From the NCBI GenBank assembly GCA_963665755.1, contig OY762445.1, positions 2,214,590-2,278,589 on the forward strand: a stretch of DNA of 64,000 nt. Direction: 5' to 3'. Origin of the DNA: a bacterium (lineage in GTDB: Bacteria; JAAXHH01). The position numbers and the translations under genes were made by a program. This document shows, piece by piece, positions 32,878-52,861 of this stretch. The notes below the pieces were generated by a model. It made no database searches. It was not told where the DNA came from and saw only the letters and a program-made list of their open reading frames with translations. Numbering within the stretch: position 1 is the first letter of the stretch; each line of letters begins with the position of its first letter.

Positions 32878-32883
32878 CGCTCA

Positions 32884-35339: not shown

Positions 35340-35474
35340 AAACGACCACCCTTACCGCCGAATACCAATGAGAATGATCATCAATATCACGGTATTCAAC
35401 TCAAGTAGTTTCCATGGGGGGAGTCAGCTCAACAGGTCTAAAATTACACGCTCGGTTACACATCCAGCCATGAA

Positions 35475-36666: not shown

Positions 36667-36744
36667 GATACCATGTTCCTTTCGGGTGTATGTTTCCGTG
36701 ATGTGAGTGATCTACTGACGGTTCATGAAGAAAGCGATATTCGA

Positions 36745-39598: not shown

Positions 39599-40687
39599 AT
39601 GAGCACCGAACAGGATGACCAGGAACACGGTATCAAGGCGGTAAACCAGGAATTCACGCATTACGACCAGGTGAAGAAGGAACAGACCTACAACCTGGCC
39701 GAGGGCGCGGCGAAGGAGGAATTCGACGAGGAAACGCAGATCAGGACCTGCGACATGAGCCTGTTCTACCACGGCGGCCCGGAGGGCAAGGCACAGTTCG
39801 CCCGGGATATCGGCGAAGCCATGGAGGGCATCGGTTTCGTGATCCTCGAGAACCACGAGATACCGGCCAGCCTGTACGTCGAGGCAGAGCGCAAAGTAGC
39901 CGAGTTCTTCACGTCCACGCCTATAGCGGATAAGATGAGATACGAGGCCCAGCGGCACGGGTCGGTCAACCAGGGCTACTTCCCCATCAAGCAGACCAGC
40001 CGGATGCATCCCGATCTCGTCGAGGGCTGGGTATTCTGCCGGCGAGCCTTCAACCTGGGCGAGAACCCGGACTATCGTGAAACGGACTACTGGCCCGCGG
40101 CCGGATACGAACCCTTCTTCCGGCAGGTCATCCAAAGCCACGAAGGACTGATCCTGCCCCTCATGCAGAGCATCCTGGCCTATCTCGGCTGTGACTCGAC
40201 AATGTACGACGGAAAACTCACCCGAACGAACTTCGGCTTCCGGCTCAACTACTACCCGCCCATCACCCGGGAGGACGACGAGTCCGGCGCCGGTCGCATG
40301 CTGGGCCACGAAGACGTGGACCTGTTCACCATCCTGCCCTCCCACGGGGTGGATGGCCTGCAGGTGCTCAACCGCGAGAACATGAAGTGGATCCGCCTCA
40401 ATCCGCCCGAGGGCAGCATCATCATCAACACCGGCGACTACATGCAGCGGATCACCAACGACCGCCTTCCCTCCACCACGCACCGCGTCAGCAAGCCTAT
40501 CGACACCAGTCTCTACGAATCGGCCCGCATCAGCATTCCCATGGCCGTATACGTCTGGGAAGAAGAGATGCTCGAGGTGCTGCCCAACACAGGCGAGCCT
40601 AAGTACGAACCCATCTCCGCCGTCCAGTTCCACACCCGGACCACGAGCAAGTACTACGGCGACGATTACGCCGTTGATGATGACTGA
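39599..40687 (+). CDS. Fe(II)/2-oxoglutarate-dependent oxygenase (isopenicillin-N-synthase-like DIOX_N + 2OG-FeII_Oxy)
   Basis: H-E-D (MLGHEDVDLFTIL), a distal His (TTHRVS) and the R-x-S 2OG-binding motif (ARISIP). 362 aa. Confidence 0.8.
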   Translation: MSTEQDDQEHGIKAVNQEFTHYDQVKKEQTYNLAEGAAKEEFDEETQIRTCDMSLFYHGGPEGKAQFARDIGEAMEGIGFVILENHEIPASLYVEAERKVAEFFTSTPIADKMRYEAQRHGSVNQGYFPIKQTSRMHPDLVEGWVFCRRAFNLGENPDYRETDYWPAAGYEPFFRQVIQSHEGLILPLMQSILAYLGCDSTMYDGKLTRTNFGFRLNYYPPITREDDESGAGRMLGHEDVDLFTILPSHGVDGLQVLNRENMKWIRLNPPEGSIIINTGDYMQRITNDRLPSTTHRVSKPIDTSLYESARISIPMAVYVWEEEMLEVLPNTGEPKYEPISAVQFHTRTTSKYYGDDYAVDDD

Positions 40688-40780
40688 GGACGGAGCGATA
40701 TTACGTCTGACGGCCACCCAGCGGCCCGCGAATGACCACCCGTGGTAGACGACGACAGGCGGGATCCAGAAAGGCTATGC

Positions 40781-41539
40781 ATGACTCCCCACGAAAGATA
40801 CCTCTTCGACCTGCAGGGCTTCATCGAGGTCCCGGACGCCATTGACGTCGGGCAACTCGCCGAATTGAACGGCATACTGGACGAGAAGATCGACGGGGCC
40901 ATGGCGCCCGGCGCCACCACCCACCGATTCGGTTTCACGCTGCTCGACTGGGGACCCGCGTACCGGGCATTGATAGACAACCCGCGGATAGATCCTTACC
41001 TGGAAAAGCTGATCGGTCCAAAGTACCGGCTGGACCACGACTACGCCGATATCATCCGCAAAGGCGACGGTCCCATCGGCACGACCCTCCACGGCGGCGC
41101 CATTCCCTTCGACCCTCTCTACTCCTACACCTGCACCAACGAAGAGATCCGTTGCGGCCTGACCGTGGTGGCCTACTACCTGAAGGACGTCAATCCAGGC
41201 GACGGCGGATTCGGCTGCGTACCCGGCAGCCACAAGAGCAACTTCCGGTTCCCGGACGAGTGGCGCAACCTCAAGACCGACCAGCCCTTCATCCGAGCCG
41301 TAACCGGCAAGGCCGGCACCGCCGTGATCTTTACCGAAGCGCTGACCCACGGGACCATGCCCTGGCGCGGCGACGAGCGCCGCACCCTCTTCTACAAGTA
41401 CTCGCCCAATTCGATATCCTGGTACGCGGAATACTACGACGCCGACCGGTACGAGGGTCTGACGGAACGGCAGCAGAAGATCCTTGAAGCGCCGAACGCG
41501 CGGTACGGGCAGCGGTTTAAGCGTGGGGTGGTGGTGTAG
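40781..41539 (+). CDS. PhyH-family Fe(II)/2OG oxygenase-like protein with a non-canonical H-G-G in place of the H-x-D/E metal motif
   Basis: It aligns with the two other PhyH-family genes in this window (…WHRD… / …WHMD… versus …TLHGGAIPFD…). The distal His is conserved (CVPGSHKSNF). The start was chosen at MTPHERYL. Confidence 0.65.
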   Translation: MTPHERYLFDLQGFIEVPDAIDVGQLAELNGILDEKIDGAMAPGATTHRFGFTLLDWGPAYRALIDNPRIDPYLEKLIGPKYRLDHDYADIIRKGDGPIGTTLHGGAIPFDPLYSYTCTNEEIRCGLTVVAYYLKDVNPGDGGFGCVPGSHKSNFRFPDEWRNLKTDQPFIRAVTGKAGTAVIFTEALTHGTMPWRGDERRTLFYKYSPNSISWYAEYYDADRYEGLTERQQKILEAPNARYGQRFKRGVVV

Positions 41540-42135
41540 GTGGGTTTTTCGGATAGACCAGCTAATATCTCGACAATAGGAATACCTTACGAGTAAACCA
41601 ACCGATCTTTCGGCAACATGAATGTGGCATTAGAGATTTCTGAATCAAGAGGTTACCGATGGACGTCAAGGAAACCGTAAGGACAGCCATGGATAATGTT
41701 GCCGACATGTACTCGGAAGAGGGTATTTCACAGATAGGATTAGAAGAGGTAGAGTACGATGAACTGAACGCTCAAATGAAAAACAACCGAGTGAGTTGAT
41801 TTCCGAATTGCGTCATCAACGAGGAACGCTCTCAGTTTCCATTACTCTTTTCATACACGTTTTCAACAATAGCTAAGACGTTGTAATCCTTTTCGGGTTC
41901 AGTTTAAAACACGAATCTACGAGCACTGAGCGTAGTGTACTTATATAGGGATTGAAACAATGGATCGGGCGTTTCGCAATTACTCTTGGACATTACTGAA
42001 ATGTTTTTGACCTCGTTTTAAGACTGATAAACTATCCGCTAATCAAATTTGTATGTGATTCCCCATTCAATTTCCTACTATCTACTTGCTAGACATGATA
42101 CCGGTGTAGAATAAGTAACTGACAAAGGAGTCATC
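41540..42135. other. AT-rich non-coding leader marking the left edge of a lower-GC acquired block (the defence island)
   Basis: There is an abrupt compositional change relative to the flanking high-GC genes. About 600 bp has no ORF of 60 aa or more. One 46-codon acidic ORF (41659-41799) has an AAGAGG RBS. Confidence 0.6.
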
Positions 42136-43944
42136 GTGGCGATCGCAACAACGCCTGTGGCAGACAGACACGAAACGATATCGCCAACTTCGGCGCAGGC
42201 CGATATCGAATCGGCATCAGTGAGTGCCCGGAGGCTTGCATCGTCGGTGAAACCTGAAAACCGACTTGATTTTGCCCGCACGATGGTTTACGGCGTTGTC
42301 TGCGCATATTGGGAAGGGCTACAGTCAAGGTCAGGCTGGAGCCTGCCGCTACGGAAACCGCCCTTCGATTGCCAAGTCACGCCTGTACTTCCGGAAGTCA
42401 GCGCACTGGCGCAAATTATCGGAACGGCCGCAAACTTGCTTCCGCCAACGCACGCCAGCTACCAGATAGGCATGGTTTACACCGCAATGATGCCGGACAG
42501 GTTACGGGCTGAACTAGGAGCGTATTACACGCCGCCCGCGCTATGCGAGCGATTGCTGGAGATGGCAACGGAGGCTGGTGTCGATTGGCGTTCGGCCCGG
42601 ATTCTCGATCCTGCGTGTGGAGGGGGCGCATTCCTGTCTCCGGTGGCGCATCGAATAATGGAAAACCTGGATGGCCGCAGTGCCGAGACCGTGCTGAATA
42701 ACATACAGCAACGTCTGCATGGATTCGAACTTGACCCCTTTGCGGCGTGGCTTTCAATGGTATTTCTCGATGCGACCCTCGGTGAAATGTACTTAGAGAC
42801 AAGAACCCGGCTTCGTTCCATCGTGCGGGTGCAAGACACGATGGAACGGACTCCGTCGGGCGAAGGGTTCGATCTTGTCGTTGGAAACCCGCCGTACGGA
42901 AGAATCTCATTGTCAACAGATCTGCGTAACAGGTTCCGCCGCAGCCTGTTTGGCCATGCAAACTTGTATGGCGTGTTTACCGATCTGGCGTTGCGCTTCG
43001 CGAGCCCCGGAGGGGTGATCGCATTCGTGACCCCCACGAGCTTTCTTGCCGGCGAGTATTTCAAGAATCTACGCGACCTGCTTGGACGGGAAGCTCCGCC
43101 TGTGAGCATCGACTTTGTTGGCGAACGCAAGGGGGTTTTTACTGATGTGTTGCAGGAAACCTTGTTGGCAACCTATAGGCGTGGCGGCAACCCATATGTG
43201 GGCGAAGTGCATTTCATTACGCCTGGACCGGATGGCTCGATTACAACAAAGACCGCAGGATCCTTCGGTCTGCCTGAAGAACCGGCCCACCCATGGGTTA
43301 TGCCGCGTTCTGAAGATCAATGCCTGCTGGTGCGGCAGGCCGAGCGACTGCGGTATCGACTGGCCGACTACGGCTATACGGTGAGCACCGGACCCCTGGT
43401 TTGGAACAGACACAAAGAGAGCTTGAGAGGAGGACCCGGAAAGGGGCGATATCCGTTGATCTGGGCAGAATCGGTGCGCCCATACGGTGAGTTTGAATTC
43501 AGGGCAGTTAAGCGGAATCACAAACCGTATTTCGAACCAAAGCCAAACGAGTGCTGGGTAGTCACCGATTCGCCGTGCGTGCTGTCCCAAAGGACCACGT
43601 CGAAGGAGCAAAATCGGCGTTTGAAAGTGGCAGAGTTACCCATGTCCTTCGTCGAGAAACACGGTGGTGTGGTTGTCGAGAACCATTTGAACATAATCAA
43701 GCCGCTCGATGGCGAGCCGAAGGTGACACCTACGGCGTTGTCTGCTTTGTTGAACAGCGAAGTGGTAGACAGACTGTTCCGTTGCATAAACGGCAGCGTC
43801 GCGGTATCCGCCTATGAACTGAAATCGTTGCCCCTCCCATCTCCGGAAGACATGAAAGCAATTGAGCAAATGGTGAATCGTCGCGCGAAACGTAAAACGG
43901 TGGAACGGGCGGTAGAACGTCTGTACAGCGTCGGAGTGACATGA
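42136..43944 (+). CDS. N6-adenine DNA methyltransferase, gamma class (Eco57I/TaqI-like), type II RM modification subunit
   Basis: Motif X (GAYYTPPAL), motif I (ILDPACGGGAFL) and motif IV (VVGNPPYGR) are in gamma-class order. A C-terminal region of about 150 aa fits a target-recognition domain. Confidence 0.85.
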   Translation: MAIATTPVADRHETISPTSAQADIESASVSARRLASSVKPENRLDFARTMVYGVVCAYWEGLQSRSGWSLPLRKPPFDCQVTPVLPEVSALAQIIGTAANLLPPTHASYQIGMVYTAMMPDRLRAELGAYYTPPALCERLLEMATEAGVDWRSARILDPACGGGAFLSPVAHRIMENLDGRSAETVLNNIQQRLHGFELDPFAAWLSMVFLDATLGEMYLETRTRLRSIVRVQDTMERTPSGEGFDLVVGNPPYGRISLSTDLRNRFRRSLFGHANLYGVFTDLALRFASPGGVIAFVTPTSFLAGEYFKNLRDLLGREAPPVSIDFVGERKGVFTDVLQETLLATYRRGGNPYVGEVHFITPGPDGSITTKTAGSFGLPEEPAHPWVMPRSEDQCLLVRQAERLRYRLADYGYTVSTGPLVWNRHKESLRGGPGKGRYPLIWAESVRPYGEFEFRAVKRNHKPYFEPKPNECWVVTDSPCVLSQRTTSKEQNRRLKVAELPMSFVEKHGGVVVENHLNIIKPLDGEPKVTPTALSALLNSEVVDRLFRCINGSVAVSAYELKSLPLPSPEDMKAIEQMVNRRAKRKTVERAVERLYSVGVT

Positions 43945-45029
43945 TGGTATTGCCTGCTTTGACACCCGTATCCGATATCCATGAACGGCTGCAGGTCATC
44001 TTTCCATCCGGAACGGCTAACCGGAACTACGTGACACGCGAGATCGCTGCCAAGACGGTATTCGTCATGATGTATAGCGGCGCGATAGAAGGATCGGACC
44101 ACTGGATACGACCGGACCAGGTGACTCGGATGACCGATGTACAGGCAGCGTCTACGAGCGACGCCGACCGCGAAGCGTGGCGGGAAGAGTCTCTGCGGCC
44201 CGCGGCTGGATCTATAGAGGGACGGTGGTACGCTGTTAATACACGCGAGCCGATCCGCGACGAGACGTTGCGCGAGGGGTTGGTGCGGACCGGTGCCGTG
44301 GTGGAGCGGGAAAGGATTCCAACGACCTCGCCGAGGCCGCGCTATGCGCTTACTCGGGATTTCGTGGCTTTGCTTGATCCTGGTTTGTACGGCAATGCCC
44401 TTGAAACTGCAGTTACGGCCTGGCAGAAATCGAATCTATCGACGGGTGCGCTGGCACGCATTGAGATCATGAGACAGGGTGCAGTCAGTAGCGAAGGTAG
44501 AGTTCTCGTTACGTTGCCAAGTGGCGAAACCCGGCAAATGCAACCGGGCCCGAGTTCAGTGATTTCAAAAGCCGTTATTGAGGAATTCGCACCGAGATTC
44601 CTTGGAGTGCCTGGGGCGATCTGGTTAAGCGAAAGTCGCAACCAGGTCGTGGCGCGGGATGATGAATTGGCACAGGCGATCGGCCTGACTATCGACCCGC
44701 AACGCAATCTGCCCGATCTGATCCTCGTCGACCTTGGTCCGGTTGAACCAGTGCTCGTGTTTGTGGAGGTAGTGGCAACATCCGGACCCGTTAGTGCGTC
44801 GCGCCAAGTGGCGTTGTGGAGGATCGCTGAAGAAGCCGGGTTCAACGAAAAACAGGTAGTATTCGTGACAGCCTTCGAGGACCGTGACACTGCCACGTTC
44901 AAAAGCTCGGTGAGCCAGTTGGCCTGGCGGTCTTTCGCGTGGTTCATGTCCGAGCCGGATCACATCATATTCCTGTATCAAGGCGCCCAGAACGGACAGG
45001 TGAAGTTGACGAATCTGAATGCCATTTAA
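43941..45029 (+). CDS. candidate type II restriction endonuclease partner of the upstream methyltransferase (BsuBI/PstI-family-like)
   Basis: A 362-aa ORF whose ATG overlaps the MTase stop (ATGA). It has an acidic/hydrophobic core segment (DLILVDLGPVEPVLVFVEVVATSG) compatible with a PD-(D/E)xK-type nuclease. The family assignment rests on gene context and general resemblance, not on a verified motif. Confidence 0.45.
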   Translation: MMVLPALTPVSDIHERLQVIFPSGTANRNYVTREIAAKTVFVMMYSGAIEGSDHWIRPDQVTRMTDVQAASTSDADREAWREESLRPAAGSIEGRWYAVNTREPIRDETLREGLVRTGAVVERERIPTTSPRPRYALTRDFVALLDPGLYGNALETAVTAWQKSNLSTGALARIEIMRQGAVSSEGRVLVTLPSGETRQMQPGPSSVISKAVIEEFAPRFLGVPGAIWLSESRNQVVARDDELAQAIGLTIDPQRNLPDLILVDLGPVEPVLVFVEVVATSGPVSASRQVALWRIAEEAGFNEKQVVFVTAFEDRDTATFKSSVSQLAWRSFAWFMSEPDHIIFLYQGAQNGQVKLTNLNAI

Positions 45030-45149
45030 AGTCATCGCTGAACAATCTCCGAACAGCGCTTTCTGTTGGTGGAATTGGAATCGTATAACAGTTCTGGTAT
45101 TTCTTATCAATTTGAAGTTGCGCCCGGAATGTGTTCACAAGGAGTACAT

Positions 45150-45503
45150 ATGACACTTCTGAAGGCAATAGAAGAAGTCCTGAACACGGTTCGAAAACCA
45201 CTACATGTCTCCGAGATATACACCGAAATCGTCAATCGGGACCTATGGAGTACTTCCGGAAAAACCCCCGAAGCGACAATCAGCGCACAACTCAGTTCAG
45301 ATCTCAAGAAACATGGTGACGCATCCCGGTTCGTCAGGGTTTCACCTCAGACCTTTGCCATGCACGATTGCACTTGGAATGACGACGAGAAAACAAAAAC
45401 CAATGCACTACAAAGACATTACATCAAAAGCACTAGAAAACGGTTGGCTGGTTACCAAGGGGAAGACCCCCGAGTTAACCATGAACGCCCAAGTGAACAC
45501 TGA
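45150..45503 (+). CDS. standalone Mrr_N (HARE-HTH winged-helix) domain protein. It may be the frameshifted N-terminal part of the downstream Mrr gene.
   Basis: MTLLKAIEEVLNTVRKPLHVSEIYTEIVNRDLW...GKTPEATISAQLSSDLKK...ASRFVRV matches the Mrr N-terminal domain. A perfect AAGGAG RBS lies 7 nt before ATG 45150. Confidence 0.55.
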   Translation: MTLLKAIEEVLNTVRKPLHVSEIYTEIVNRDLWSTSGKTPEATISAQLSSDLKKHGDASRFVRVSPQTFAMHDCTWNDDEKTKTNALQRHYIKSTRKRLAGYQGEDPRVNHERPSEH

Positions 45504-46086
45504 GATAAAACGACGGCGGAACCGAGGTGACGCTCCTCGATTTGTCCAGCACGGGCGTGGTTACATCGGCCTGAGCAAATGGCAAGCGCGAGGTTTGGCG
45601 TTCCAGATCGAGCAGTACAATCAAGAAGTGCGAAAGACGTTACGAGACCGTCTGCTGGCTATAAAACCTAAAGAGTTTGAAAAGCTGATTTCGCGATTGC
45701 TGGCCGAGATGGGCTTCGTCGAAGTGGAGGTCGGGAGTTTTCATGCCGACGGCGGAATCGATGTTCGGGGTGAACTTACGGTAGGAGATGTTGTTCGTTT
45801 GAAACTAGCTGTTCAGGTCAAACGATGGAAGCGCAACGTGCAAGCCCCAGTTGTTAGAGACGTAAGAGGTAGCCTGGGTGCCCACGAACAAGGACTGATA
45901 ATTACGACCAGCGATTTCGGGAAAGGAGCGAAAGAAGAAGCTGCCCAAGCCGACAAGAGCCCTATTGCGCTCATGAATGGAGAGCAACTCGTCCAACTTA
46001 TGATGGAATACGGTATCGGTGTCCACCGCTCGACACCCAATCTGCTCGAGATTGATGAGGAATCGCTGGCGTGGAACAAAGAATAA
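45403..46086 (+). CDS. mrr: Mrr-family type IV (modification-dependent) restriction endonuclease: a second Mrr_N domain plus the Mrr_cat nuclease domain
   Basis: Second Mrr_N copy (MHYKDITSKALENGWLVTKGKTPELTMNAQVNTEIKRR...APRFVQH). The catalytic core is GGIDVRGE ... VQVKRW (PD-(D/E)xK of Mrr_cat). The frame is +1 relative to the upstream Mrr_N gene, with 101 nt of overlap. Confidence 0.7.
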   Translation: MHYKDITSKALENGWLVTKGKTPELTMNAQVNTEIKRRRNRGDAPRFVQHGRGYIGLSKWQARGLAFQIEQYNQEVRKTLRDRLLAIKPKEFEKLISRLLAEMGFVEVEVGSFHADGGIDVRGELTVGDVVRLKLAVQVKRWKRNVQAPVVRDVRGSLGAHEQGLIITTSDFGKGAKEEAAQADKSPIALMNGEQLVQLMMEYGIGVHRSTPNLLEIDEESLAWNKE

Positions 46087-46099
46087 TGGAGCGAAGGCC

Positions 46100-48232
46100 A
46101 TGAACTCAATACCGGAAGAATCCTCTAATCGTCCTTGCTGGTTTGTAGGTGCAAGTTACAATAGGTCCGAAGACCAAACCGAACGGTTCCTCCAGGAAGG
46201 AATTTGGGAAAACGACTTCGACGTCGATCATCCAGCCGTCGAAATGACCAAGTCAATGAAAACAGGAGACCGTATTGCGATAAAGGCAACCTACGTTCGT
46301 AGAAAGGCGTTGCCGTTTGAAAATAACGGACGGCCCGTGTCAGTTATGGCAATCAAAGCCATTGGTATAGTTGTAGAAAATGCTGGCGATGGTCATACTG
46401 TCAGGGTCGACTGGACACGAGTCGATCCCATACGTGAATGGTATTTAAACACCTATATACGTACAGTTTGGAAGGTGACGCCAGGAAGCGACTGGTACGC
46501 CGATGCCTTGATAGGGTTTGCATTCGAGAACAAAAAACAGGACATCGATCGGTTCTTGAAGATTGACTACTGGGGAAAGAGATACATAGACGATTCACCC
46601 GGGAAACAACGATACGCCTGGACTAGTTTCTATGAGTCTTTCGCGGATCAGTTACTCACATTTAAAGATAAGCGTGCCGATCTAATCGATAGGATACATG
46701 CCGTCGCTACCAAAGAAAACTCAATGTACTTAGTGCAAGATCTATTTTCTGATGGTACGTCCGGACCACTTAATGACATTTGCCCGTTTACGACCATGGC
46801 TATGTTCAACAGGGGAATAACGGATTCTAACAGGTATTTGGTAGCTTCAGAATTGGCTAACCAACTAGGCGTGTCTGAGTCGGTACCGGATAAATTCGAA
46901 GGCATCCCAGTAGTAGACAATCGCAGCTCCTGGTTTTTCAACTACGAAAAAGACAGGAAGTCAGACGCTATTGATGTTCTCTGGAACGTTTTCTTCTGTG
47001 CCATGTCCTTTTCCGACTCCGTTTCGGAGAATCCCGACACGCGATCTGCTTTCATCTCCGCCTATGAATCCGCTATAAAACTACCTAATGTTGGTTGGAA
47101 ACTATCATTTGGTCTGTATTGGATTCGGCCTTGGTCTTTTCCTTCCCTCGACACTCTGGCTCGGGATTTCATAGAAAAAGAACTTGATACTGTAATTGGC
47201 CTTAACGGCCCAAAGAACCGATGCAACGCAGATGACTATCTAAACGTCCGAGATGCTTTAGATGCCAAGTTCAAGGAAGAGGGCTGCCCTGTAAATTCTT
47301 TTCCGCAACTCGCCTATGAGGTCTGGATGAACAAGGTGGGCCCCACTACATATACGTTAAACAACATTGTAAAGGAAGGTTGCTTCATCGAAAGAAGCAA
47401 ACTCGAGTCGATACTCGACAGTCTTCGTACTGAAAAAAACCTCATTCTTCAGGGTCCGCCTGGTACAGGGAAGACATGGCTTGCCAGAAAGTTAGCCTTC
47501 GCCTTGATCGGTCAGCGAGATGAAAGCAAGGTACGCATGGTACAATTCCATCCCAATCTTTCATACGAAGATTTCGTGCGTGGGTGGCGACCGGCAGGAG
47601 ATGGTAGACTCACACTAGTTGATGGACCTTTCATTGGCATTAGGGATGCGGCAGAAAAAGATCCCAATTCTCCGTATGTCCTGGTTATCGAAGAGATCAA
47701 TAGGGGAAACCCCGCGCAGATTTTCGGTGAAATGCTGACTTTGTTGGAGGCCGACAAACGAACGCCTGACGAGGCGTTGGAATTGGTTTATCCGAGGACA
47801 TCGAACGAGCGTTTTTTTATTCCTAACAATCTATTTGTAATCGGAACAATGAATATCGCCGACCGGTCACTGGCACTCGTAGACCTGGCGCTGCGCCGGC
47901 GGTTTGCCTTTATCGATCTTGAACCCACCCTTGGCGAGCCCTGGCGAGACTGGGTCCATTCGAAAAACGGAATTCCAAAAGAAACGCTCGTCGAGATTGA
48001 GAATCGTATTGTAGACCTTAACCAAACGATTTCCAAGGACACTAGTCTCGGACCGCAGTTTCGCTTGGGACACAGCTACGTTACACCTAAATTCGCAAAC
48101 CCGATTGACGATGGTAAGATGTGGTACCGGAAGGTTGTCGGTACGAAGATCGGACCGCTGCTCGACGAATACTGGTTTGAAGACTTGGAGTCATCAAAGA
48201 AGGCAATACAAAAGCTACTGGAAGGGTTTTGA
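46100..48232 (+). CDS. mcrB: McrB-family GTPase (type IV restriction AAA+ motor) with an unusually long N-terminal DNA-reader region of about 450 aa
   Basis: AAA+/GTPase motifs of McrB are present: GPPGTGKT (Walker A), LVIEEINRGNPAQIFGE (McrB signature), FVIGTMN and the arginine finger region. The N-terminus is an uncharacterised reader region (see finding). GGAG lies 9 nt upstream of the start. Confidence 0.85.
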   Translation: MNSIPEESSNRPCWFVGASYNRSEDQTERFLQEGIWENDFDVDHPAVEMTKSMKTGDRIAIKATYVRRKALPFENNGRPVSVMAIKAIGIVVENAGDGHTVRVDWTRVDPIREWYLNTYIRTVWKVTPGSDWYADALIGFAFENKKQDIDRFLKIDYWGKRYIDDSPGKQRYAWTSFYESFADQLLTFKDKRADLIDRIHAVATKENSMYLVQDLFSDGTSGPLNDICPFTTMAMFNRGITDSNRYLVASELANQLGVSESVPDKFEGIPVVDNRSSWFFNYEKDRKSDAIDVLWNVFFCAMSFSDSVSENPDTRSAFISAYESAIKLPNVGWKLSFGLYWIRPWSFPSLDTLARDFIEKELDTVIGLNGPKNRCNADDYLNVRDALDAKFKEEGCPVNSFPQLAYEVWMNKVGPTTYTLNNIVKEGCFIERSKLESILDSLRTEKNLILQGPPGTGKTWLARKLAFALIGQRDESKVRMVQFHPNLSYEDFVRGWRPAGDGRLTLVDGPFIGIRDAAEKDPNSPYVLVIEEINRGNPAQIFGEMLTLLEADKRTPDEALELVYPRTSNERFFIPNNLFVIGTMNIADRSLALVDLALRRRFAFIDLEPTLGEPWRDWVHSKNGIPKETLVEIENRIVDLNQTISKDTSLGPQFRLGHSYVTPKFANPIDDGKMWYRKVVGTKIGPLLDEYWFEDLESSKKAIQKLLEGF

Positions 48233-49353
48233 GGGTGAACAGGGCGGTTGAGAGCGCTGTTTCTGAGACGACCGAGAACGTCGGCCATATCGGTCGTATC
48301 CCCGTTCGAAATCTGTGGCTGCTCATGCTATACGCCTCCGATCTTTTCAGGCAACTTGATGTATCCGAAGACCGTTCCTTCGAAGATAATCCAGATAACC
48401 TACCCGATCTGGTTGCCGAGATCCTCGCCCATGAAGTCGAGCGTCGATTAAGGCGGAATCTGAGTTACGGTTACCGGTACCGTCACGAAGTGCTCGGACG
48501 GGTTCGCGGACGTATCGACCTTCTCCAAACCGAGGCTCATCAATTACTTCAACGGGGCATGGTTGCCTGTCGATTCGACGAACTGACGATCGACACACCC
48601 AGGAACAGGTACGTTCGATCCGCCCTCGAAATGATATCTAGATTCGTTCGAAGGAATGACCTGGCTCACCGGTGCCGATCTCTCGTTGGTAGCCTGAGGC
48701 GCCAGGGCGTCGTTGGCGAGCGGCCGGGGCGCGAGGAGACTTCAGTCGAACGTTACGGTAGACACGATGCCGTTGACCGAAAGATGGTGGACGCTGCTCG
48801 ACTCGCTTTCGAAATGGCCATTCCGACTGAGCAGACCGGTTCCAGACACCTTCCGTTACCCGATCGCGAGATCAACTGGATACGCAGGCTCTATGAGAAA
48901 GGCGTTGCAGGATTCTATGATGTGGTACTTTCCAGAAGGGGATGGAAGGTGTATACGGGAACGATTCTCAGATGGTCCACGAAAGACAGTAGTCCGCGAA
49001 TAGACCAGATACTCCCCACCATGCGTACCGATATCGTGTTGGACCACATGGATGACAATCACCGTATCGTTATCGACACGAAATTCAACTCGGTATTGTC
49101 GAAAGGTTGGTATCGGAATGAAGGGATTCGAAGCGGTTACATGTACCAGATCTACGCCTACCTGAGATCTCAGGAAGAGAGTGGCAATCCGCTTGATTTA
49201 CATGCAGAGGGCATTTTTCTTCATCCGTCGGTTGGCGAGAAGTTCAACGAGTGGGTAGAGATTCAGGGACATAGAATCCGGTTTACCACCGTGGATCTCA
49301 GTGCGGATGCGAAGACCATTCGATCTCAGTTGTTGGATGCGGTGGGACTTTAA
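48229..49353 (+). CDS. mcrC: McrC-family nuclease subunit (PD-D/ExK)
   Basis: It follows McrB with a 4-nt overlap (TTG or GTG start). The C-terminal nuclease motif is ...TMRTDIVLDH...IVIDTKFN (D...D-x-K). Confidence 0.8.
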   Translation: MRVNRAVESAVSETTENVGHIGRIPVRNLWLLMLYASDLFRQLDVSEDRSFEDNPDNLPDLVAEILAHEVERRLRRNLSYGYRYRHEVLGRVRGRIDLLQTEAHQLLQRGMVACRFDELTIDTPRNRYVRSALEMISRFVRRNDLAHRCRSLVGSLRRQGVVGERPGREETSVERYGRHDAVDRKMVDAARLAFEMAIPTEQTGSRHLPLPDREINWIRRLYEKGVAGFYDVVLSRRGWKVYTGTILRWSTKDSSPRIDQILPTMRTDIVLDHMDDNHRIVIDTKFNSVLSKGWYRNEGIRSGYMYQIYAYLRSQEESGNPLDLHAEGIFLHPSVGEKFNEWVEIQGHRIRFTTVDLSADAKTIRSQLLDAVGL

Positions 49354-49444
49354 ACAGGCATTGCGCCCTTCATGTTTGTTAAACCTGCCCATTTCCCGCA
49401 TCCGATTGGTGCCATCGGTAGCTTCGGGTATCTCAGGAATAGAC

Positions 49445-50371
49445 TCACCCCACCTTCCTGAAGACCTCAAAACGACGGTCCAACCGGTCCTGGTCCGGAT
49501 GGTCACGGGTGCGTGAAGGCAGGTGCAGCCCCGATCCGTCCAGTTGCTTGAGGGCCTGGAGCAGGGGACCGTCATCCTGATCCAGCAGGCGGTCGGATAC
49601 GTGCAGCCGGTAGTCGGGGTCAATACCGATCAGGTGGGCGTCAAAGGCCGCGTGATGGATCTTGGACAGGGCCAGGCCGTTCGGAACGACGGGTTGCCCG
49701 AGGGCTTCGTCACCATCCGCGATGATGTGGGCGGCATCCAGTAACTGTGTTTCTGGCAGGCCGGTAATGGCACAGCGGCGTCCGTAAGCGTAAAGTACCG
49801 CTTCGCGGAACGTGGCTTGATGGAGTCGTTCCTTGACCATGCGCAAGGCATACCGCCGCTCTGCCGCGTTAATCGGAGCTTCCATCTCGGCCTGGTAGGG
49901 GTTCCCAAAGGCAAGCGTGGACTTAAGCGCGAATCCATCCCAATTGGAGATGAAGGTGGGAATGATCGCCTGGTACCGGCCGGGAGACACGCCGAGAAAG
50001 TAGATCACGGGAATCTGTTTCTCACAGGCAACCTTAAGCCACTGGTTGTCAGCTGCTTCCGGGTCCTGTCCCATGAAGGCGTAGTCCACGGTATCGTTGC
50101 CCGCGAAAATCTGGCTGTGGACCTGCCTTTGGTCGTCGTACCAGACTCGGCCACCCGATCTGGGGTACACGGTCCTGATCGAGAGTAGGTAACGCATCCG
50201 GCGCGGCTTGAATATGCCCCGCTGCGGATTGACCAGGGGGATCCTTTCGCCTTCGAATACGAACCCCGGCGCCAGTTCGTCCCTCGTAAGGTGGCCGTGG
50301 GTGTCACTCAGCCGCCGCACGTGATCGAAAGCGGCCATCCGTATACTCGAATCTTGGTCGTCGACGTTCAT
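49445..50371 (-). CDS. SRA-HNH type IV (5-methylcytosine-directed) restriction endonuclease candidate
   Basis: The N-terminal domain matches the SRA/YDG-domain pattern (GFVFEGERIPLV...RGIFKP...SIRTVYPRSGGRVWYDD). The C-terminal HNH_2 motif is present (AYGRRCAITG...LDAAHII...NGLALSKIHHAAFD). Confidence 0.65.
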   Translation of the reverse strand: MNVDDQDSSIRMAAFDHVRRLSDTHGHLTRDELAPGFVFEGERIPLVNPQRGIFKPRRMRYLLSIRTVYPRSGGRVWYDDQRQVHSQIFAGNDTVDYAFMGQDPEAADNQWLKVACEKQIPVIYFLGVSPGRYQAIIPTFISNWDGFALKSTLAFGNPYQAEMEAPINAAERRYALRMVKERLHQATFREAVLYAYGRRCAITGLPETQLLDAAHIIADGDEALGQPVVPNGLALSKIHHAAFDAHLIGIDPDYRLHVSDRLLDQDDGPLLQALKQLDGSGLHLPSRTRDHPDQDRLDRRFEVFRKVG

Positions 50372-50380
50372 TTCGGTCCT

Positions 50381-50821
50381 TTACCCCCGGTAAATCCTCG
50401 CATTGTGCCAGGATAGTACTTCGGTGGACGGCTGGTCCACAGCATTCCTGGGAACGACAATCTGATTCCCGTGCAAAGCGTAGTAATCGCGCCCGTTCTC
50501 GAACTCCTCCCGGACCTGTCCGCTGACCTCGAAGTGCAGATCCGGGGTCACCGTTACATATCCGGAATCGAACAGCCCGTGGATGTCGCGCCTCAGCAGC
50601 ATTCCGTTCCTGGCTTCGTGGATGCCCCCTTCGCTGTAGGACCGTATGTGCGCGGCGTCGAGGGCAGGCAGCGTCCGTTCGCGGGTAACTGCGCAACGGC
50701 GGTCGTAAAGGTCGGTTACCAGGGCCCTGAAAGCACCTTGGCCGAGACGCGGCTTTACCAGTTGTGGCTTGCCAAAAAGAGTTTGCCCGGCCTGGAGGTC
50801 TTCGGAATCACGGAACGAAGT
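50381..50821 (-). pseudogene. decayed paralogue of the adjacent HNH endonuclease. The HNH_2 domain is retained while the N-terminal reader domain is lost.
   Basis: The reverse-frame translation is open from a TGA at 50822-50824 down to 50381. It reads ...QGAFRALVTDLYDRRCAVTRERTLPALDAAHIRSYSEGGIHEARNGMLLRRDIHGLFDSGYVTVTPDL. The only Met (50602) lies inside the HNH motif. AT-rich non-coding DNA lies upstream. Confidence 0.6.
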
Positions 50822-51144
50822 TCAGGATCGCCCCAGAGGATGTTTGCAGGGTCTATCTCAAAAAATCCCGCTTTGTTGCATCAAGTATATAATTCCCTTA
50901 AAATAAAAGACGGCTACCATGGCAGGTCAAGTGCCGCCTGCGTAATGGAGATTTTTGACGTTTGGAACACCGAGCGAGTGCTTCCAGATTGCCTTGACCA
51001 AATGTACCGTTTAGTTTACTGAACGTTGGCACAATTGAACTTAGAAGTTACCATGGAATTCGAGCGAGGTTGTGAATGGACCGATACATATATTATGTTG
51101 CGAAGTTGTATTCATATATCGGAAATAGTACATAGGGGATTTGT

Positions 51145-51342
51145 GTGGTGAACAGTAACTCAAAAGACAAAAATGAACGGCGACCGCGTAAACGAAGCGC
51201 CAAACATGACAACTCGGTTGAAGGAAACCAACCGCGAGCCAACCTGGCAGAAGCGATACGCACCCGTTTTGCTCCATTGGGTGACGTTGAACTGGAGCTG
51301 CCACCACGCGAACCCATGCGCGAACCGCCCGATTTCGAGTAA
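51145..51342 (+). pseudogene. remnant of a FitA/VapB-type (RHH) antitoxin gene. The C-terminal half is conserved, the N-terminal RHH is absent and there is no cognate toxin gene.
   Basis: The C-terminus ...NLAEAIRTRFAPLGDVELELPPREPMREPPDFE matches the conserved tail of FitA/VapB-like antitoxins. The first 30 residues (GTG start, Lys/Arg-rich) are unrelated to an RHH. No PIN-domain ORF follows. Confidence 0.4.
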
Positions 51343-51466
51343 TGAGAACGCATTAACGCTTACCGGGACCTGTGGCTTGCGAAATCGCATATAGTTCGAC
51401 AGCATTGACTTTACCGGTAAATCAGTATCTTCGCATCCACATCCCCAACCTCACAAAGGACACCCC

Positions 51467-52861
51467 ATGCCCCCGATCGACATCGGTTCACGCCGCGAAC
51501 TGTTCGTCGACCGATACCTCGTCGACACCCTAACAGACGCCCACCAACACCTCCACGACCCCGTTCTGAAGGAGACGGTATTCCGCGTAGAGGAACCCCT
51601 GGAGAACGCCTGTACGGGTTGCTACAACCTGGTTCAGGCCGACGGTAAGATCCTGGTGTATTACCGCGGCTATCATCCCACGGGCAAACACGAGGATCTG
51701 CCCGAGGGTTGGGCGGAAACCCAGACGACAAACCTGCTGGTCAGCGATGACGGCATACACTTCGAACGGCCGAGCCTGGGGATGGTGGAAGCGGAGGGCT
51801 CGAAGCAGAACAACATCCTCGTCCGGGGCCGCGAGGCACACAACTTCTGCGTCTTCCTGGACGGCAATCCGGAAACCGCGCCCGATCAGCGTTTCAAGGC
51901 CGTCGGTGGGGAAGGCAGGGACAGTCTCTTCGGTTTCACTTCATCCGACGGATTGACCTGGAAACCGGTGCAGGACGGTCCCCTCGCTATCACGGGCGCC
52001 TTCGACTCGGTGAACGTGCCCCTGTGGGATAGCTACGCGGGTTGCTACCGCCTATTCAGCCGGTATTTCGAGCAGACGGGGAACGACGGCGTCGGGGTCC
52101 GCGCCATTCAGAGCTGCACCTCGGAGGATTTCATCCACTGGACCACGCCCGAACACCACGTGTACGGCGAAGGCGTCCCGTTCGAGCACTTCTACACCAA
52201 CGCCACCACGCCATGTCCGGGCGCGGAACACATCCTGCTGTCCTTTCCCATGCGTTTCGTGCCGGAACGGACGAAGGACATCGAGGGCATGGATTACCCC
52301 GGGGGCGGGGTGTCCGACGCGGTGTTCATGTCGAGCCGGGACGGCGTCCATTGGGACCGGAGCTTCATGGACGCCTGGCTGCGCCCGGGCCTGGAAAAGC
52401 GCAACTGGACGCACCGCAACCAAACGCCGGCCGCGGGGATCGTTCCGACGGCTCCGGACGAATGGTCGATGTACGTTGCCGAGCATTACGGCTGGGACAC
52501 CAACGGCGTGCGGCGGGTGACCGTCCGCCCCCACGGTTTCGCTTCCGTCCGGGCAGGATACCACGGGGGCGAGCTGCTCACGAAACCTGTGACCTTCACC
52601 GGATCGACGCTGTTTATCAACTACTCGGCGTCCGCCGTGGGCGCCGTGTCCGTCGAGATCCAGGATTCGGAAGGAAGGGCCGTCGAAGGTTTCGCCGCGG
52701 AGGACATGGATCCCCTGTTCGGCGACGACCTGGACGCCCCGATTACGTGGAAGGGCTCCGACGGTCTGAATGGCCTGAACCGGCTGAACGGGGTACCCGT
52801 CCGCCTGCGGTTCATCCTGAAGGACGCCGATCTCTTCTCGATCCGTTTCGGAGAATCCTGA
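51467..52861 (+). CDS. hypothetical protein, possibly a beta-propeller/beta-sandwich glycoside-hydrolase-like enzyme. High-GC host-type composition resumes here.
   Basis: A 464-aa ORF rich in Trp/Asp/Gly with repeated 'DGxxW' and 'SxDGxxW' motifs (SSDGLTWKP, SRDGVHWD) reminiscent of BNR/propeller hydrolases. No family could be assigned by eye. Confidence 0.4.
   Translation: MPPIDIGSRRELFVDRYLVDTLTDAHQHLHDPVLKETVFRVEEPLENACTGCYNLVQADGKILVYYRGYHPTGKHEDLPEGWAETQTTNLLVSDDGIHFERPSLGMVEAEGSKQNNILVRGREAHNFCVFLDGNPETAPDQRFKAVGGEGRDSLFGFTSSDGLTWKPVQDGPLAITGAFDSVNVPLWDSYAGCYRLFSRYFEQTGNDGVGVRAIQSCTSEDFIHWTTPEHHVYGEGVPFEHFYTNATTPCPGAEHILLSFPMRFVPERTKDIEGMDYPGGGVSDAVFMSSRDGVHWDRSFMDAWLRPGLEKRNWTHRNQTPAAGIVPTAPDEWSMYVAEHYGWDTNGVRRVTVRPHGFASVRAGYHGGELLTKPVTFTGSTLFINYSASAVGAVSVEIQDSEGRAVEGFAAEDMDPLFGDDLDAPITWKGSDGLNGLNRLNGVPVRLRFILKDADLFSIRFGES

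What the first reader, a model, noticed from the sequence alone, without database searches (positions are those of the whole stretch)
41540..51460. About 10-kb lower-GC defence island stacking one type II RM and three modification-dependent (type IV) restriction systems
Composition drops sharply to a lower-GC stretch between the PhyH-family gene (ending 41539) and the hydrolase-like gene (starting 51467). The block begins with a 600-bp AT-rich leader. It then carries a gamma-class m6A methyltransferase with a translationally coupled endonuclease candidate, an Mrr locus, mcrB-mcrC and an SRA-HNH enzyme on the opposite strand. It ends with a decayed HNH paralogue and an antitoxin remnant. Four nucleic-acid-targeting systems are packed this densely and are bounded by pseudogene debris. 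That is the hallmark of a defence island that is still being remodelled. Because the type IV systems target modified DNA, the island would be particularly effective against phages with hypermodified cytosines or adenines. No integrase, tRNA or obvious att repeats were seen, so the mobilisation mechanism is unclear.
Basis: partly seen in the sequence, partly recalled or inferred. Interest (0 to 1): 0.75.

Follow-up and report, generated by a model that had tools for sequence, protein, structure and literature searches.

The report
Chromosomal restriction-enzyme defence island, partly decayed
This is an ordinary but well-preserved bacterial anti-phage "defence island": a variable slot between two conserved genes that here holds one classical restriction-modification pair, two intact and two broken enzymes that cut modified DNA, and leftovers of earlier cargo.

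Summary
Window 41540-51466 has 52.1% GC against 61.5% elsewhere, and it is the lowest-GC stretch of its size in the window.

HMMs confirm these parts:
- a PstI/BsuBI-family type II RM pair with a gamma-class m6A methyltransferase;
- a HARE-HTH/Mrr_cat enzyme;
- McrBC;
- an HNH_2 enzyme on the opposite strand;
- a truncated second HNH gene;
- the tail of a FitA-like antitoxin.

1. Mrr is broken by a 56-bp frameshifting deletion. Relatives and more than 100 homologues have an intact protein of about 330-360 aa.
3. McrB carries an EVE/YTH-like reader, not the E. coli-type one.
4. The "AT-rich leader" contains the relic of another gene.
5. The island is layered, not one block. The HNH pair is old. 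RM+Mrr+McrBC (41541-49442) is an insertion relative to two related genomes.

In about 15 related Gemmatimonadota/"Latescibacterota" MAGs, the same slot between the PhyH-family gene and the hydrolase-like gene holds different cargo. Examples are type I RM, Mza, PLD nucleases and AddAB-like pairs. No integrase, tRNA or att repeats are present.

The closest analogue is the enterobacterial immigration control region. Verdict: a new member of a known kind, of modest interest.

The parts
40781..41539 (+). Left anchor gene: PhyH-family 2OG-Fe(II) dioxygenase. It is conserved in relatives and is not part of the cargo.
   Evidence: Pfam PhyH, E 6e-8. 84-96% aa identity in L007, L012-L014, L016-L018 and L021. 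GC3 is 0.82. The gene call gives 252 aa.
41540..42135 (+). AT-rich 'leader' (40% GC). Positions 41644-41775 are the relic of the N-terminal third of a 122-aa gene that is intact in relatives, where it pairs with a 156-aa gene. Positions 41776-42068 have no counterpart in any relative. AAGGAG plus GTG of the MTase lies at the 3' end.
   Evidence: tblastn of the L007 122-aa ORF, residues 22-65, gives 73% identity at E 1e-16. DNA 40679-41775 aligns to L007 at 86% and then stops. The pair also occurs in L010 and L012. There are no Rfam hits, and promoter-like sites are not above the shuffled expectation.
42136..43944 (+). Type II m6A DNA methyltransferase, gamma class. Motif I (DPACGGG) is at residue 158, motif IV (NPPY) is at residue 251, and the target-recognition region is C-terminal.
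   Evidence: Pfam Eco57I 8e-15 and N6_Mtase 2e-10. PADLOC MTase_II PDLC03338 scores 767 bits over the full length.
43941..45029 (+). Type II restriction endonuclease of the BsuBI/PstI family. It is translationally coupled to the MTase by an ATGA overlap.
   Evidence: Pfam BsuBI_PstI_RE_N 8e-32 and BsuBI_PstI_RE 6e-43. PADLOC REase_II PDLC03589 scores 423 bits. The overlap is shown.
45150..46086 (+). Mrr-type (HARE-HTH x2 + Mrr_cat) type IV endonuclease gene, disrupted. A 56-bp deletion after base 45393 removes helix 1 of the second HARE-HTH and shifts the frame. What remains is a 117-aa HARE-HTH ORF (45150-45503) and a 227-aa ORF from ATG 45403.
   Evidence: Pfam Mrr_cat 1e-26 and a partial HARE-HTH covering profile positions 15-71. 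PADLOC PDC-S02 / mREase_IV. A second HARE-HTH lies in another frame. L011 has an intact 330-aa ORF with two HARE-HTH stretches. The DNA alignment shows the 56-bp gap. All but one of the 120 best homologues listed are 326-529 aa and cover at least 95% of the intact form; the one exception is 324 aa at 86% cover. The same broken sequence occurs in independent assemblies.
46100..48232 (+). McrB. Its N-terminus is an EVE/YTH-like PUA-fold reader (about residues 13-126), followed by a helical DUF8425 region (to about 417). The C-terminus is a GTPase of the E. coli McrB type, with GPPGTGKT and the NxxD signature NIAD.
48229..49353 (+). McrC nuclease subunit. Its TTG start overlaps the McrB stop; an alternative ATG gives 342 aa.
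   Evidence: NCBIfam NF007277 McrC scores 399.8 bits, above the 338 cut-off. Pfam McrBC 7e-23. A D-T-K motif lies at residue 283.
49445..50371 (-). HNH-1: an intact single-chain HNH_2 endonuclease of 308 aa. Its roughly 160-aa N-terminal domain is probably SRA-like. It is a candidate modification-dependent (type IV) enzyme.
50381..50800 (-). HNH-2 remnant. It is the C-terminal HNH domain of a second HNH enzyme that is intact (320-338 aa) in relatives. About 540 bp encoding its N-terminal domain are deleted here, and no start codon is left for the domain.
   Evidence: tblastn to HNH-1 residues 177-297 gives 31% identity at E 1e-9. The in-frame translation has upstream stops. Intact ORFs are L007 8412-9428 and L017 8418-9380. 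Window 50802-50898 corresponds to L007 8833-9472. The HNH domain of the L007 protein hits VcaM4I at 4.5e-7.
50801..51144 (.). AT-rich spacer (43% GC) left by the deletion. It is partly conserved with relatives from 50898 onward.
51145..51342 (+). Relic of a FitA/VapB-type ribbon-helix-helix antitoxin. Only the C-terminal tail (NLAEAIRTRFAPLGDVELELPPREPMREPPDFE) survives. There is no RHH and no partner toxin. It is present beside the hydrolase gene in most relatives.
   Evidence: A full-length homologue in L015 matches Pfam FitA-like_RHH at 1.9e-19, while the window ORF has no Pfam hit. The alignment of relatives is. tblastn gives 44-86% identity.
51467..52861 (+). Right anchor gene: a 464-aa hydrolase-like protein with no Pfam family. 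It is conserved in relatives and is not cargo.
   Evidence: No Pfam, PADLOC or NCBIfam hit. 80-96% aa identity in 16 related MAGs. GC3 is 0.81.

Best explanation
The region is the cargo of a chromosomal defence hotspot. This is a slot between two conserved anchor genes, a PhyH-family dioxygenase and a 464-aa hydrolase-like gene, in a Gemmatimonadota-related MAG lineage. Different relatives hold different defence genes in this slot.

In this genome the cargo is layered.
- Older layer: two tandem single-chain HNH endonucleases and a FitA-like antitoxin relic. HNH-1 is intact and probably SRA-like at its N-terminus. HNH-2 has lost its sensor domain through a deletion of about 540 bp.
- Younger, more foreign layer (41541-49442). 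It has a translationally coupled PstI/BsuBI-family type II RM, a HARE-HTH/Mrr_cat enzyme inactivated or truncated by a 56-bp frameshifting deletion, and a McrBC operon.

How it works (inferred from family knowledge, not tested here):
- The methyltransferase marks host DNA with m6A at the RM site, and the cognate endonuclease cuts unmarked incoming DNA.
- McrB reads a modified base with its EVE/YTH-like domain. It then uses GTP-driven translocation to load McrC, which cuts.
- HNH-1 flips out and recognises a modified base, most likely a cytosine, and nicks or cuts nearby.
- Together these systems cover both unmodified and modified invaders.

Cargo turnover most likely occurs by homologous recombination in the conserved flanks, together with local deletions and occasional IS activity. 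A dedicated integrase is not involved.
For: Shown:
- The composition break falls exactly at the anchor-gene boundaries.
- Family assignments rest on three HMM libraries, PDB sequence search and fold search.
- Synteny: L017 and L024 join the PhyH stop (w41540) directly to the HNH-1 stop (w49443), so 41541-49442 is an indel relative to them.
- The same slot in relatives holds other cargo: MzaB/C/E (L009), type I R subunits (L010, L015), a PDC-M24B/DUF1828 protein (L013), PDC-M48B/LmuA-like plus PLD-HEAT proteins (L016), an HSDR_N-like nuclease (L007, L020), and AddAB-like helicase-nuclease pairs that are intact in several relatives and decayed in L021.
- GC3 forms a gradient: anchors 0.81-0.82, HNH pair 0.71-0.73, RM 0.60-0.63, McrC 0.58, Mrr and McrB 0.49-0.54.
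- Decay events are mapped at base level.
- An IS630-family element sits between the REase and Mrr genes in L011.
- There is no tRNA, no flanking repeat, and no integrase among the called genes.
- The arrangement is reproduced in at least five independent metagenome assemblies.

Established knowledge:
- The enterobacterial immigration control region has the same logic: conserved anchors, and variable hsdRMS, mrr, mcrBC and gmrSD cargo (PMC12707154).
- EVE-superfamily domains are the commonest specificity modules fused to McrB (PMC7641849, PMC11090510).
Against: - No function was tested. Recognition sequences and modification specificities are unknown.
- CTGCAG, the site of PstI and BsuBI, is not avoided in the window: 27 observed against 24.2 expected. 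Sequence statistics therefore do not corroborate the RM specificity or its long-term activity.
- The SRA assignment rests on a model with mean pLDDT 51, and Pfam finds no SAD_SRA.
- The truncated 227-aa Mrr could still be active, since its Mrr_cat domain is intact.
- Some cargo in relatives is not defence-related: a MacB/FtsX permease in L014 and a DnaJ-domain protein in L018. The slot is therefore not exclusively a defence locus.
- Recombination in the flanks is inferred from the absence of other machinery and is not demonstrated.
- No strain-level polymorphism was seen among contigs carrying the identical PhyH protein.
Confidence: 0.85

Rival explanations
1. The block is, or is the remnant of, a self-mobile element. 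It could be a genomic island with a site-specific integrase, a prophage fragment, or an ICE/IME that brought all the systems in together.
For: The composition break is sharp and gene debris lies at both ends. An IS630-family transposase sits inside the equivalent island of L011, and an IS21 sits inside a similar Mrr-McrBC cluster in Kiritimatiella.
Against: There is no integrase, recombinase, phage or conjugation gene within the island or about 10 kb either side. There is no tRNA and there are no direct or inverted repeats at the boundaries. There is no near-identical DNA in 72,556 plasmids. The cargo is mosaic among relatives, with sub-blocks present independently: RM without HNH in L011 and L020, HNH pair alone in L017 and L024, McrBC without RM in L007 and L013. 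The GC3 gradient argues for several acquisitions.
Confidence: 0.07
2. All three type IV loci, including Mrr, are functional. On this view the 227-aa product from ATG 45403, or a split two-chain Mrr, is an active enzyme, and the 56-bp difference is a natural variant.
For: Mrr_cat is complete, with a Pfam match to 114 of 115 profile positions. The reading frame from 45403 is open, and gene callers accept it. The same sequence is fixed in several assemblies.
Against: The family norm is two HARE-HTH domains plus Mrr_cat in one chain of at least 324 aa. The deletion is not a multiple of three. It removes the first helix of the second HARE-HTH, leaving profile positions 15-71 only. It also detaches the first HARE-HTH. 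L013 and L007 show further Mrr erosion down to 3' fragments, and the Kiritimatiella Mrr_cat is cut by an IS21. Loss of Mrr therefore looks recurrent next to McrBC.
Confidence: 0.12
3. The low-GC block is an assembly or binning artefact, that is, a chimeric join of foreign DNA into a MAG contig, and not a real chromosomal feature.
For: The source is metagenomic. Two assemblies break contigs between about 50258 and 50443.
Against: The identical arrangement with both anchors occurs in independent assemblies from different samples and assemblers: ERZ23492301, ERZ23492361, ERZ12815472/0, ERR3887494 and ERZ27263419. Homologous islands sit at the same slot in closed chromosomes of 3.7-3.9 Mb (L007, L011, L013).
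Confidence: 0.02

Closest known systems
Enterobacterial immigration control region (ICR; E. coli K-12 mcrBC-hsdSMR-mrr between yjiA and yjiN)
   Same: It is a chromosomal slot between conserved anchor genes whose content varies between relatives. One modification-protective RM is stacked with Mrr and McrBC type IV enzymes. It has atypical composition, no dedicated integrase, and cassette-like replacement. The ICR features are taken from PMC12707154.
   Different: The phylum and the anchor genes differ. The RM is type II (PstI/BsuBI family), not type I. Mrr uses HARE-HTH domains instead of the Mrr_N winged helix, and it is frameshifted. McrB uses an EVE/YTH-like plus DUF8425 N-terminus instead of ADAM/DUF3578. 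Two extra HNH enzymes are present.
EVE/YTH-fused McrBC systems (Bell, Wolf & Koonin 2020, PMC7641849; McrBC census, PMC11090510; archaeal McrB N-domains 6n0s and 6p0g)
   Different: The base specificity is unknown. Pfam's EVE and YTH HMMs do not match.
SRA-HNH modification-dependent endonucleases (TagI, 6ghs; the SRA-HNH part of ScoMcrA, 5zmn/5zmm)
   Same: HNH-1 is a single chain of about 300 aa with an HNH_2-type C-terminal nuclease. The N-terminal domain's best fold matches are SRA domains, including TagI and ScoMcrA.
   Different: There is no sequence-level SRA signal and the model confidence is low. There is no sulfur-binding domain. NCBIfam PT-DNA_restrict matches only the HNH part, at 54 bits against a cut-off of 180.
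PstI / BsuBI type II restriction-modification systems
   Same: Both Pfam BsuBI_PstI_RE domains are present. A gamma-class N6-adenine MTase lies adjacent.
   Different: The two genes lie in tandem and overlap by 4 bp. CTGCAG specificity was not verified, and no site avoidance is seen.
Core defence hotspots and defence islands in other bacteria (for example the Listeria ICR lmo0301-lmo0305, PMC10059834)
   Same: The anchors are fixed while diverse RM and defence cargo sits between them across the lineage.
   Different: This slot is in an uncultured lineage known only from MAGs. The cargo also includes non-defence genes in some relatives.

Membership tests
Type II RM, PstI/BsuBI family | REase with the BsuBI_PstI_RE N-terminal HTH and C-terminal catalytic domains | tested here: met
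   Pfam 8e-32 and 6e-43, both far above gathering cut-offs. PADLOC REase_II scores 423 bits.
Type II RM, PstI/BsuBI family | Adjacent cognate N6-adenine MTase with the catalytic NPPY motif and an AdoMet motif | tested here: met
   Eco57I and N6_Mtase hits. DPACGGG at residue 158 precedes NPPY at 251, giving gamma order. PADLOC MTase_II scores 767 bits.
Type II RM, PstI/BsuBI family | Recognition of CTGCAG, with m6A protection | not testable with these tools
   Only indirect evidence is available. CTGCAG is not depleted, at 27 observed against 24.2 expected. That neither supports nor excludes the site.
McrBC (type IV) | McrB AAA+ GTPase with Walker A and the NxxD signature | tested here: met
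   E. coli McrB structures match at E 8e-72. GPPGTGKT and NIAD motifs are present.
McrBC (type IV) | Co-operonic McrC with a PD-(D/E)xK nuclease | tested here: met
   NCBIfam McrC equivalog scores 399.8 bits, above the 338 cut-off. It overlaps the McrB stop.
McrBC (type IV) | N-terminal modified-base reader on McrB | tested here: met
   [not shown]
McrBC (type IV) | GTP-dependent cleavage of modified DNA | not testable with these tools
   This needs biochemistry.
Mrr-type type IV endonuclease | Mrr_cat PD-QxK catalytic domain | tested here: met
   Pfam Mrr_cat 1e-26, covering profile positions 2-115 of 115.
Mrr-type type IV endonuclease | Intact N-terminal DNA-binding module in the same chain (Mrr_N in E. 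coli; 2x HARE-HTH in this subfamily) | tested here: not met
   There is no Mrr_N hit. A 56-bp frameshifting deletion splits HARE-HTH-1 from a truncated HARE-HTH-2 plus Mrr_cat. The intact form is seen in L011 and in the 120 best listed homologues.
SRA-HNH modification-dependent endonuclease (TagI-like) | C-terminal HNH nuclease | tested here: met
   Pfam HNH_2 5e-11. The H-N-H residues are invariant in 24 homologues.
SRA-HNH modification-dependent endonuclease (TagI-like) | N-terminal SRA (SAD_SRA) base-flipping domain | tested here: inconclusive
   [not shown]
Defence island / hotspot (ICR-like) | Conserved anchor genes with variable, mostly defence, cargo across relatives | tested here: met
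   The anchors are 80-96% identical in about 15 MAGs, with at least 8 different cargo sets.
Defence island / hotspot (ICR-like) | Atypical composition relative to the host | tested here: met
Integrase-mobilised genomic island | Integrase or recombinase, a tRNA or other att site, and flanking direct repeats | tested here: not met
FitAB/VapBC toxin-antitoxin | RHH antitoxin plus adjacent PIN toxin | tested here: not met
   Only the C-terminal tail of the antitoxin remains. It has no RHH (no Pfam hit), and there is no room for a toxin before the hydrolase gene.

The most novel reading that the evidence does not exclude
The most novel reading has two parts.

1. The decay is not random. Arrival of the m6A methyltransferase may have made the resident adenine- or cytosine-methyl-sensing enzymes self-toxic. 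That would have selected for the 56-bp Mrr frameshift, and perhaps for the loss of the HNH-2 sensor. The locus would then record an RM versus type IV conflict resolved by targeted gene loss, of the kind reported between E. coli Mrr and type III methyltransferases (PMC3152355).

Probability: 0.1. Interest if true: 0.55.

Novelty: new member of a known kind. Interest (0 to 1): 0.3.

Why it matters
The locus documents an ICR-like defence hotspot, with base-level anchors and decay events, in an uncultured Gemmatimonadota-related lineage. By their isolate names, some of the source MAGs come from marine invertebrate hosts. That reading of the names is my own and was not verified.

The locus has three practical uses:
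- It gives a defined slot (PhyH-family gene to 464-aa hydrolase-like gene) that can be mined across these MAGs for known and new defence systems.
- It offers natural comparisons of intact and broken Mrr and HNH enzymes next to an m6A methyltransferase.
- It adds examples of two abundant but uncharacterised type IV families. One is DUF8425-McrB, with about 1800 homologues. The other is a 308-aa HNH enzyme with more than 6700 homologues at about 70% identity across phyla.

It does not change any concept. The same architecture has been known in E. coli for decades.

Tried and rejected
1. Megablast of 41000-52000 against PLSDB plasmids gave only a 38-bp AAA motif hit. There is no plasmid origin detectable at that sensitivity.
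2. Searches for att-like direct or inverted repeats at the boundaries gave only short chance matches.
3. tRNA and tmRNA scans found none in the 64 kb.
4. Rfam on 41-52 kb at E<=0.1 found nothing.
5. Promoter and terminator consensus scans were at or below the shuffled expectation. No transcription-unit claims are made.
6. CTGCAG avoidance was tested as a proxy for RM specificity. There was no depletion in the window or in relatives with or without the RM, so the test is uninformative.
7. For the SRA claim, Pfam on 24 homologues and PDB sequence and profile searches were negative. hhalign of the HNH-1 family against the McrB-N family showed no relationship.
8. The AF2 model of HNH-1 with a shallow alignment (69-92% identity) was poor, at pLDDT 51. 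Both structure-prediction slots were then spent, so the HNH-2 N-domain of relatives was not modelled.
10. A look-up of the 265-aa PhyH ORF failed because the called gene starts 13 codons later.
11. The 156-aa partner of the leader relic looks PIN-like by eye, but Pfam and PADLOC find nothing. It was not assigned.
12. Strain-level polymorphism of the island was sought through contigs encoding identical anchor proteins. All of them carry the same cargo.

Full report
**Observation**

- Window 41540-51466 has 52.1% GC against 61.5% for the remainder. Of all windows of that length, the lowest-GC one starts at 41501.
- In 500-bp steps, GC falls from 0.62-0.63 inside the PhyH-family gene to 0.43-0.44 at 41.5-42.2 kb. 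It stays at 0.44-0.61 across the block and returns to 0.61 or more from 51.5 kb.
- Tetranucleotide distance to the rest of the window is about 0.2 in most places and reaches 0.53 at 45-48 kb.
- Third-codon-position GC is 0.82 and 0.81 in the two flanking genes and 0.49-0.73 in the genes between them.

**Gene content**

Three HMM libraries agree on the main assignments.

*RM pair.*
- 42136-43944 is an N6-adenine methyltransferase. Hits are Eco57I and N6_Mtase, and PADLOC MTase_II at 767 bits over the full length.
- Motif I (DPACGGG, residue 158) lies before motif IV (NPPY, residue 251), and the target-recognition region is C-terminal. This is the gamma arrangement.
- 43941-45029 carries both BsuBI/PstI endonuclease domains (E 8e-32 and 6e-43). 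It overlaps the methyltransferase stop by ATGA.

*McrBC.*
- 46100-48232 is McrB. Residues 418-707 match E. coli McrB structures at E 8e-72. The GPPGTGKT and NIAD (NxxD) motifs are present.
- 48229-49353 is McrC. The NCBIfam equivalog scores 399.8 bits against a cut-off of 338.

*HNH enzyme.* On the opposite strand, 49445-50371 encodes a 308-aa protein with a C-terminal HNH_2 domain.

**The Mrr locus is damaged**

The 293-aa ORF at 45205-46086 matches Mrr_cat completely. It matches HARE-HTH only from profile position 15. A second HARE-HTH lies upstream in another frame, at 45066-45503.

The relative L011 has a single 330-aa ORF with two HARE-HTH stretches plus Mrr_cat. DNA alignment shows that the window lacks 56 bp after base 45393. 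That length is not a multiple of three. The deletion removes the first helix of the second HARE-HTH.

The 120 best homologues of the intact form are 324-529 aa. All but one cover at least 95% of the intact form; the one exception is 324 aa at 86% cover. The two-HTH single chain is therefore the family norm, and the window's state is derived. The same broken sequence is present in independent assemblies, so it is not a read error of one assembly.

**Reader domains of the two intact type IV candidates**

*McrB.*
- Residues 1-417 correspond to Pfam DUF8425 in the precomputed annotation. About 1800 homologues were found.
- An AlphaFold2 model built on 33 homologues has mean pLDDT 85.7.
- This is the common EVE-superfamily-McrB arrangement (PMC7641849, PMC11090510). 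It is not the E. coli DUF3578 type.

*HNH-1.*
- Pfam finds only HNH_2 in the window protein and in 23 homologues, even at E<=5.
- PDB sequence and profile searches find only a weak match of the HNH part to VcaM4I.
- The AlphaFold2 model is poor, with mean pLDDT 51, because the available homologues are all at least 69% identical.
- I treat "SRA-like" as plausible but not established.

**Debris at both ends**

*Right of HNH-1.* 50381-50800 (minus strand) encodes an uninterrupted HNH domain that is 31% identical to HNH-1 residues 177-297. It has stops upstream and no start codon before the catalytic histidine. In L007 and L017 the orthologous gene is intact, at 338 and 320 aa. Window 50802-50898 stands in for L007 8833-9472, so about 540 bp encoding the N-terminal domain have been deleted here.

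*Antitoxin relic.* 51145-51342 retains only the C-terminal tail of an antitoxin. The full-length homologue in L015 matches FitA-like_RHH at 1.9e-19. The window ORF has no RHH, and there is no room for a toxin gene.

*Left end.* The "AT-rich leader" is not just a leader. 41644-41775 is 73% identical in protein to residues 22-65 of a 122-aa gene. That gene is intact in L007, L010 and L012 and is always followed by a 156-aa gene.

**Origin and synteny**

The hydrolase-like gene has orthologues of 80-96% identity in 16 MAGs labelled Gemmatimonadota, "Latescibacterota" or unclassified. Several of these are closed chromosomes of 3.7-3.9 Mb.

Mapping the window's proteins and DNA onto these loci shows conserved anchors and variable content.
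- L017 and L024 join the PhyH stop (w41540) to the HNH-1 stop (w49443) with 14-65 bp between them. So 41541-49442 is an insertion relative to them.
- L007 lacks the RM and Mrr. It has the 122/156-aa pair, an HSDR_N-like nuclease, McrBC and both HNH genes.
- L011 has the RM, an IS630-family element, an intact Mrr and McrBC, but no HNH genes.
- L013 has a DUF1828/PDC-M24B protein and only a 3' Mrr fragment before McrBC.
- L020 has the RM, the HSDR_N-like nuclease and McrBC.
- Other relatives carry MzaB/C/E (L009), type I restriction subunits (L010, L015), or PDC-M48B/LmuA-like plus PLD-HEAT proteins (L016).
- AddAB-like helicase-nuclease pairs are intact in several relatives and decayed in L021.
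- Some cargo is not defence-related: a MacB/FtsX permease in L014 and a DnaJ-domain protein in L018.

The McrB reader regions are more diverged between relatives (52-75% identity) than the GTPase (75-82%).

**History**

The GC3 gradient and the synteny together suggest layers. The HNH pair (GC3 0.71-0.73) and the antitoxin relic are long-standing residents, shared with most relatives. The RM pair (0.60-0.63) is later or less ameliorated, and Mrr-McrBC (0.49-0.58) is the most foreign. This ordering is inference.

**Mobility**
- No tRNA or tmRNA occurs in the 64 kb.
- No boundary repeats exceed chance.
- No integrase or transposase is among the genes called within about 10 kb on either side.
- There are no Rfam matches.
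- No near-identical plasmid DNA was found.

Sub-blocks occur independently in relatives. The most economical mechanism is therefore homologous recombination within the conserved anchors after DNA uptake, plus local deletions and occasional IS insertion (the IS630 in L011). This is inferred, not shown.

**Mechanism (inferred from the families)**
- The methyltransferase protects host sites, and the PstI/BsuBI-type enzyme cuts unmodified invaders.
- McrB reads a modified base through its EVE/YTH-like domain. Hexamers translocate with GTP and recruit McrC to cut.
- HNH-1 recognises a modified base, most likely a cytosine if the SRA-like fold is right, and cleaves nearby.
- Mrr and HNH-2 are probably inactive in this genome.
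- The resident m6A mark must be tolerated by the surviving type IV enzymes. Whether intolerance drove the loss of Mrr is an open and testable idea. L011, which keeps both the RM and an intact Mrr, argues against a simple conflict.
- CTGCAG is not depleted, at 27 observed against 24.2 expected. Sequence statistics therefore say nothing about specificity.

**Comparison with known systems**

The closest analogue is the enterobacterial immigration control region. It has conserved anchors (yjiA and yjiN) and variable hsdRMS, mrr, mcrBC and gmrSD cargo (PMC12707154). A similar combination occurs in Kiritimatiella glycovorans, where a type III RM, an Mrr_cat gene followed by an IS21 element, and a DUF8425-McrBC operon lie together.

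The present locus differs from the ICR in lineage, anchors, RM type, the reader domains on Mrr and McrB, and the extra HNH enzymes. Each component belongs to a populous family. Nothing found here lies outside known categories.

**Verdict**

- a broken Mrr;
- HARE-HTH domains rather than Mrr_N;
- SRA supported only at fold level;
- an EVE-type McrB reader;
- a gene relic in the leader;
- layered rather than single-block origin.

It is a new member of a known kind of locus. Its interest is modest, mainly as a defined hotspot for mining defence systems in an uncultured lineage and as a natural example of type IV gene decay beside a methyltransferase.

Noticed in passing
[not shown]
   Followed up: no
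window 49445-50371 (-): The 308-aa HNH-1 protein belongs to a family of more than 6700 proteins. The family keeps about 70% identity and the same length across Gemmatimonadota, Gammaproteobacteria and Kiloniellales. That is unusually high conservation for a defence gene, and the family appears uncharacterised.
   Followed up: partly
window 51145-51342 and orthologous positions in L007-L024: The antitoxin tail (about 33 aa...NLAEAIRxRFAPLGGVELELPPREPMREPPDFE) is conserved at 55-86% in most relatives, even though the RHH and the toxin are gone. In several relatives it keeps an upstream GTG and a basic N-terminal extension. It may be a functional small ORF, or part of the hydrolase gene's upstream control region, rather than inert debris.
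   Followed up: partly
L007 1778-2609; L010 9198-9951; L012 6961-7714; relic at window 41644-41775: A recurrent two-gene cassette has overlapping ORFs of 97-122 aa and 155-156 aa. The second begins MNSVLIDTNLLV..., which looks PIN-like by eye. It has no Pfam or PADLOC match. It is possibly an unannotated toxin-antitoxin or defence pair.
   Followed up: partly
L011 4065-5230 (-): An IS630-family element (DDE_3 transposase plus HTH_32/HTH_29 ORFs) is inserted between the REase and the intact Mrr in a relative's version of the island.
   Followed up: yes
L036 (Kiritimatiella glycovorans CP010904.1 783565-797673): An unrelated phylum shows a parallel arrangement: a type III RM (N6_N4_Mtase + ResIII), a 153-aa Mrr_cat-only gene followed by IS21 istA/istB, then DUF8425-McrB and McrC. 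Mrr erosion next to this McrBC type may be recurrent.
   Followed up: no
window about 50258-50443: Two independent assemblies break their contigs here, between the 5' part of HNH-1 and the 3' end of the HNH-2 remnant (L039 and L041 end; L003 and L005 begin). Short inverted repeats lie at 50114-50127/50430-50443 and 50006-50023/50456-50473. The cause is unknown. Candidates are strain variation, low coverage or the repeats.
   Followed up: no
window 26000-28000 and 32000-37000: These are secondary dips in GC (0.56-0.58) with raised tetranucleotide distance (up to 0.36 at 35-37 kb). The ORFs there include several with no Pfam family (26657-27367, 33133-34722 at 529 aa, 35176-35826, 36421-37362). 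They sit next to ABC-transporter, Asp/Asn hydroxylase and aldehyde dehydrogenase genes. No defence or mobility signal was seen.
   Followed up: partly
L010, L012, L014, L018, L019, L011 (upstream of cargo); L021 2983-7219: An AddAB-like pair lies directly after the PhyH anchor in many relatives. It comprises a PD-(D/E)XK protein of about 880-940 aa and a UvrD-type helicase-nuclease of about 1130-1260 aa. The pair is fragmented in L021 and absent from the window's sublineage. It is unclear whether it is a housekeeping repair pair or a defence module.
   Followed up: partly
window 51467-52861: The right anchor gene (464 aa) has no Pfam, NCBIfam or PADLOC family. It is nevertheless conserved at 80-96% across the lineage, and it has paralogous tandem copies in Clostridia and other 'Latescibacterota' MAGs.
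   Followed up: no
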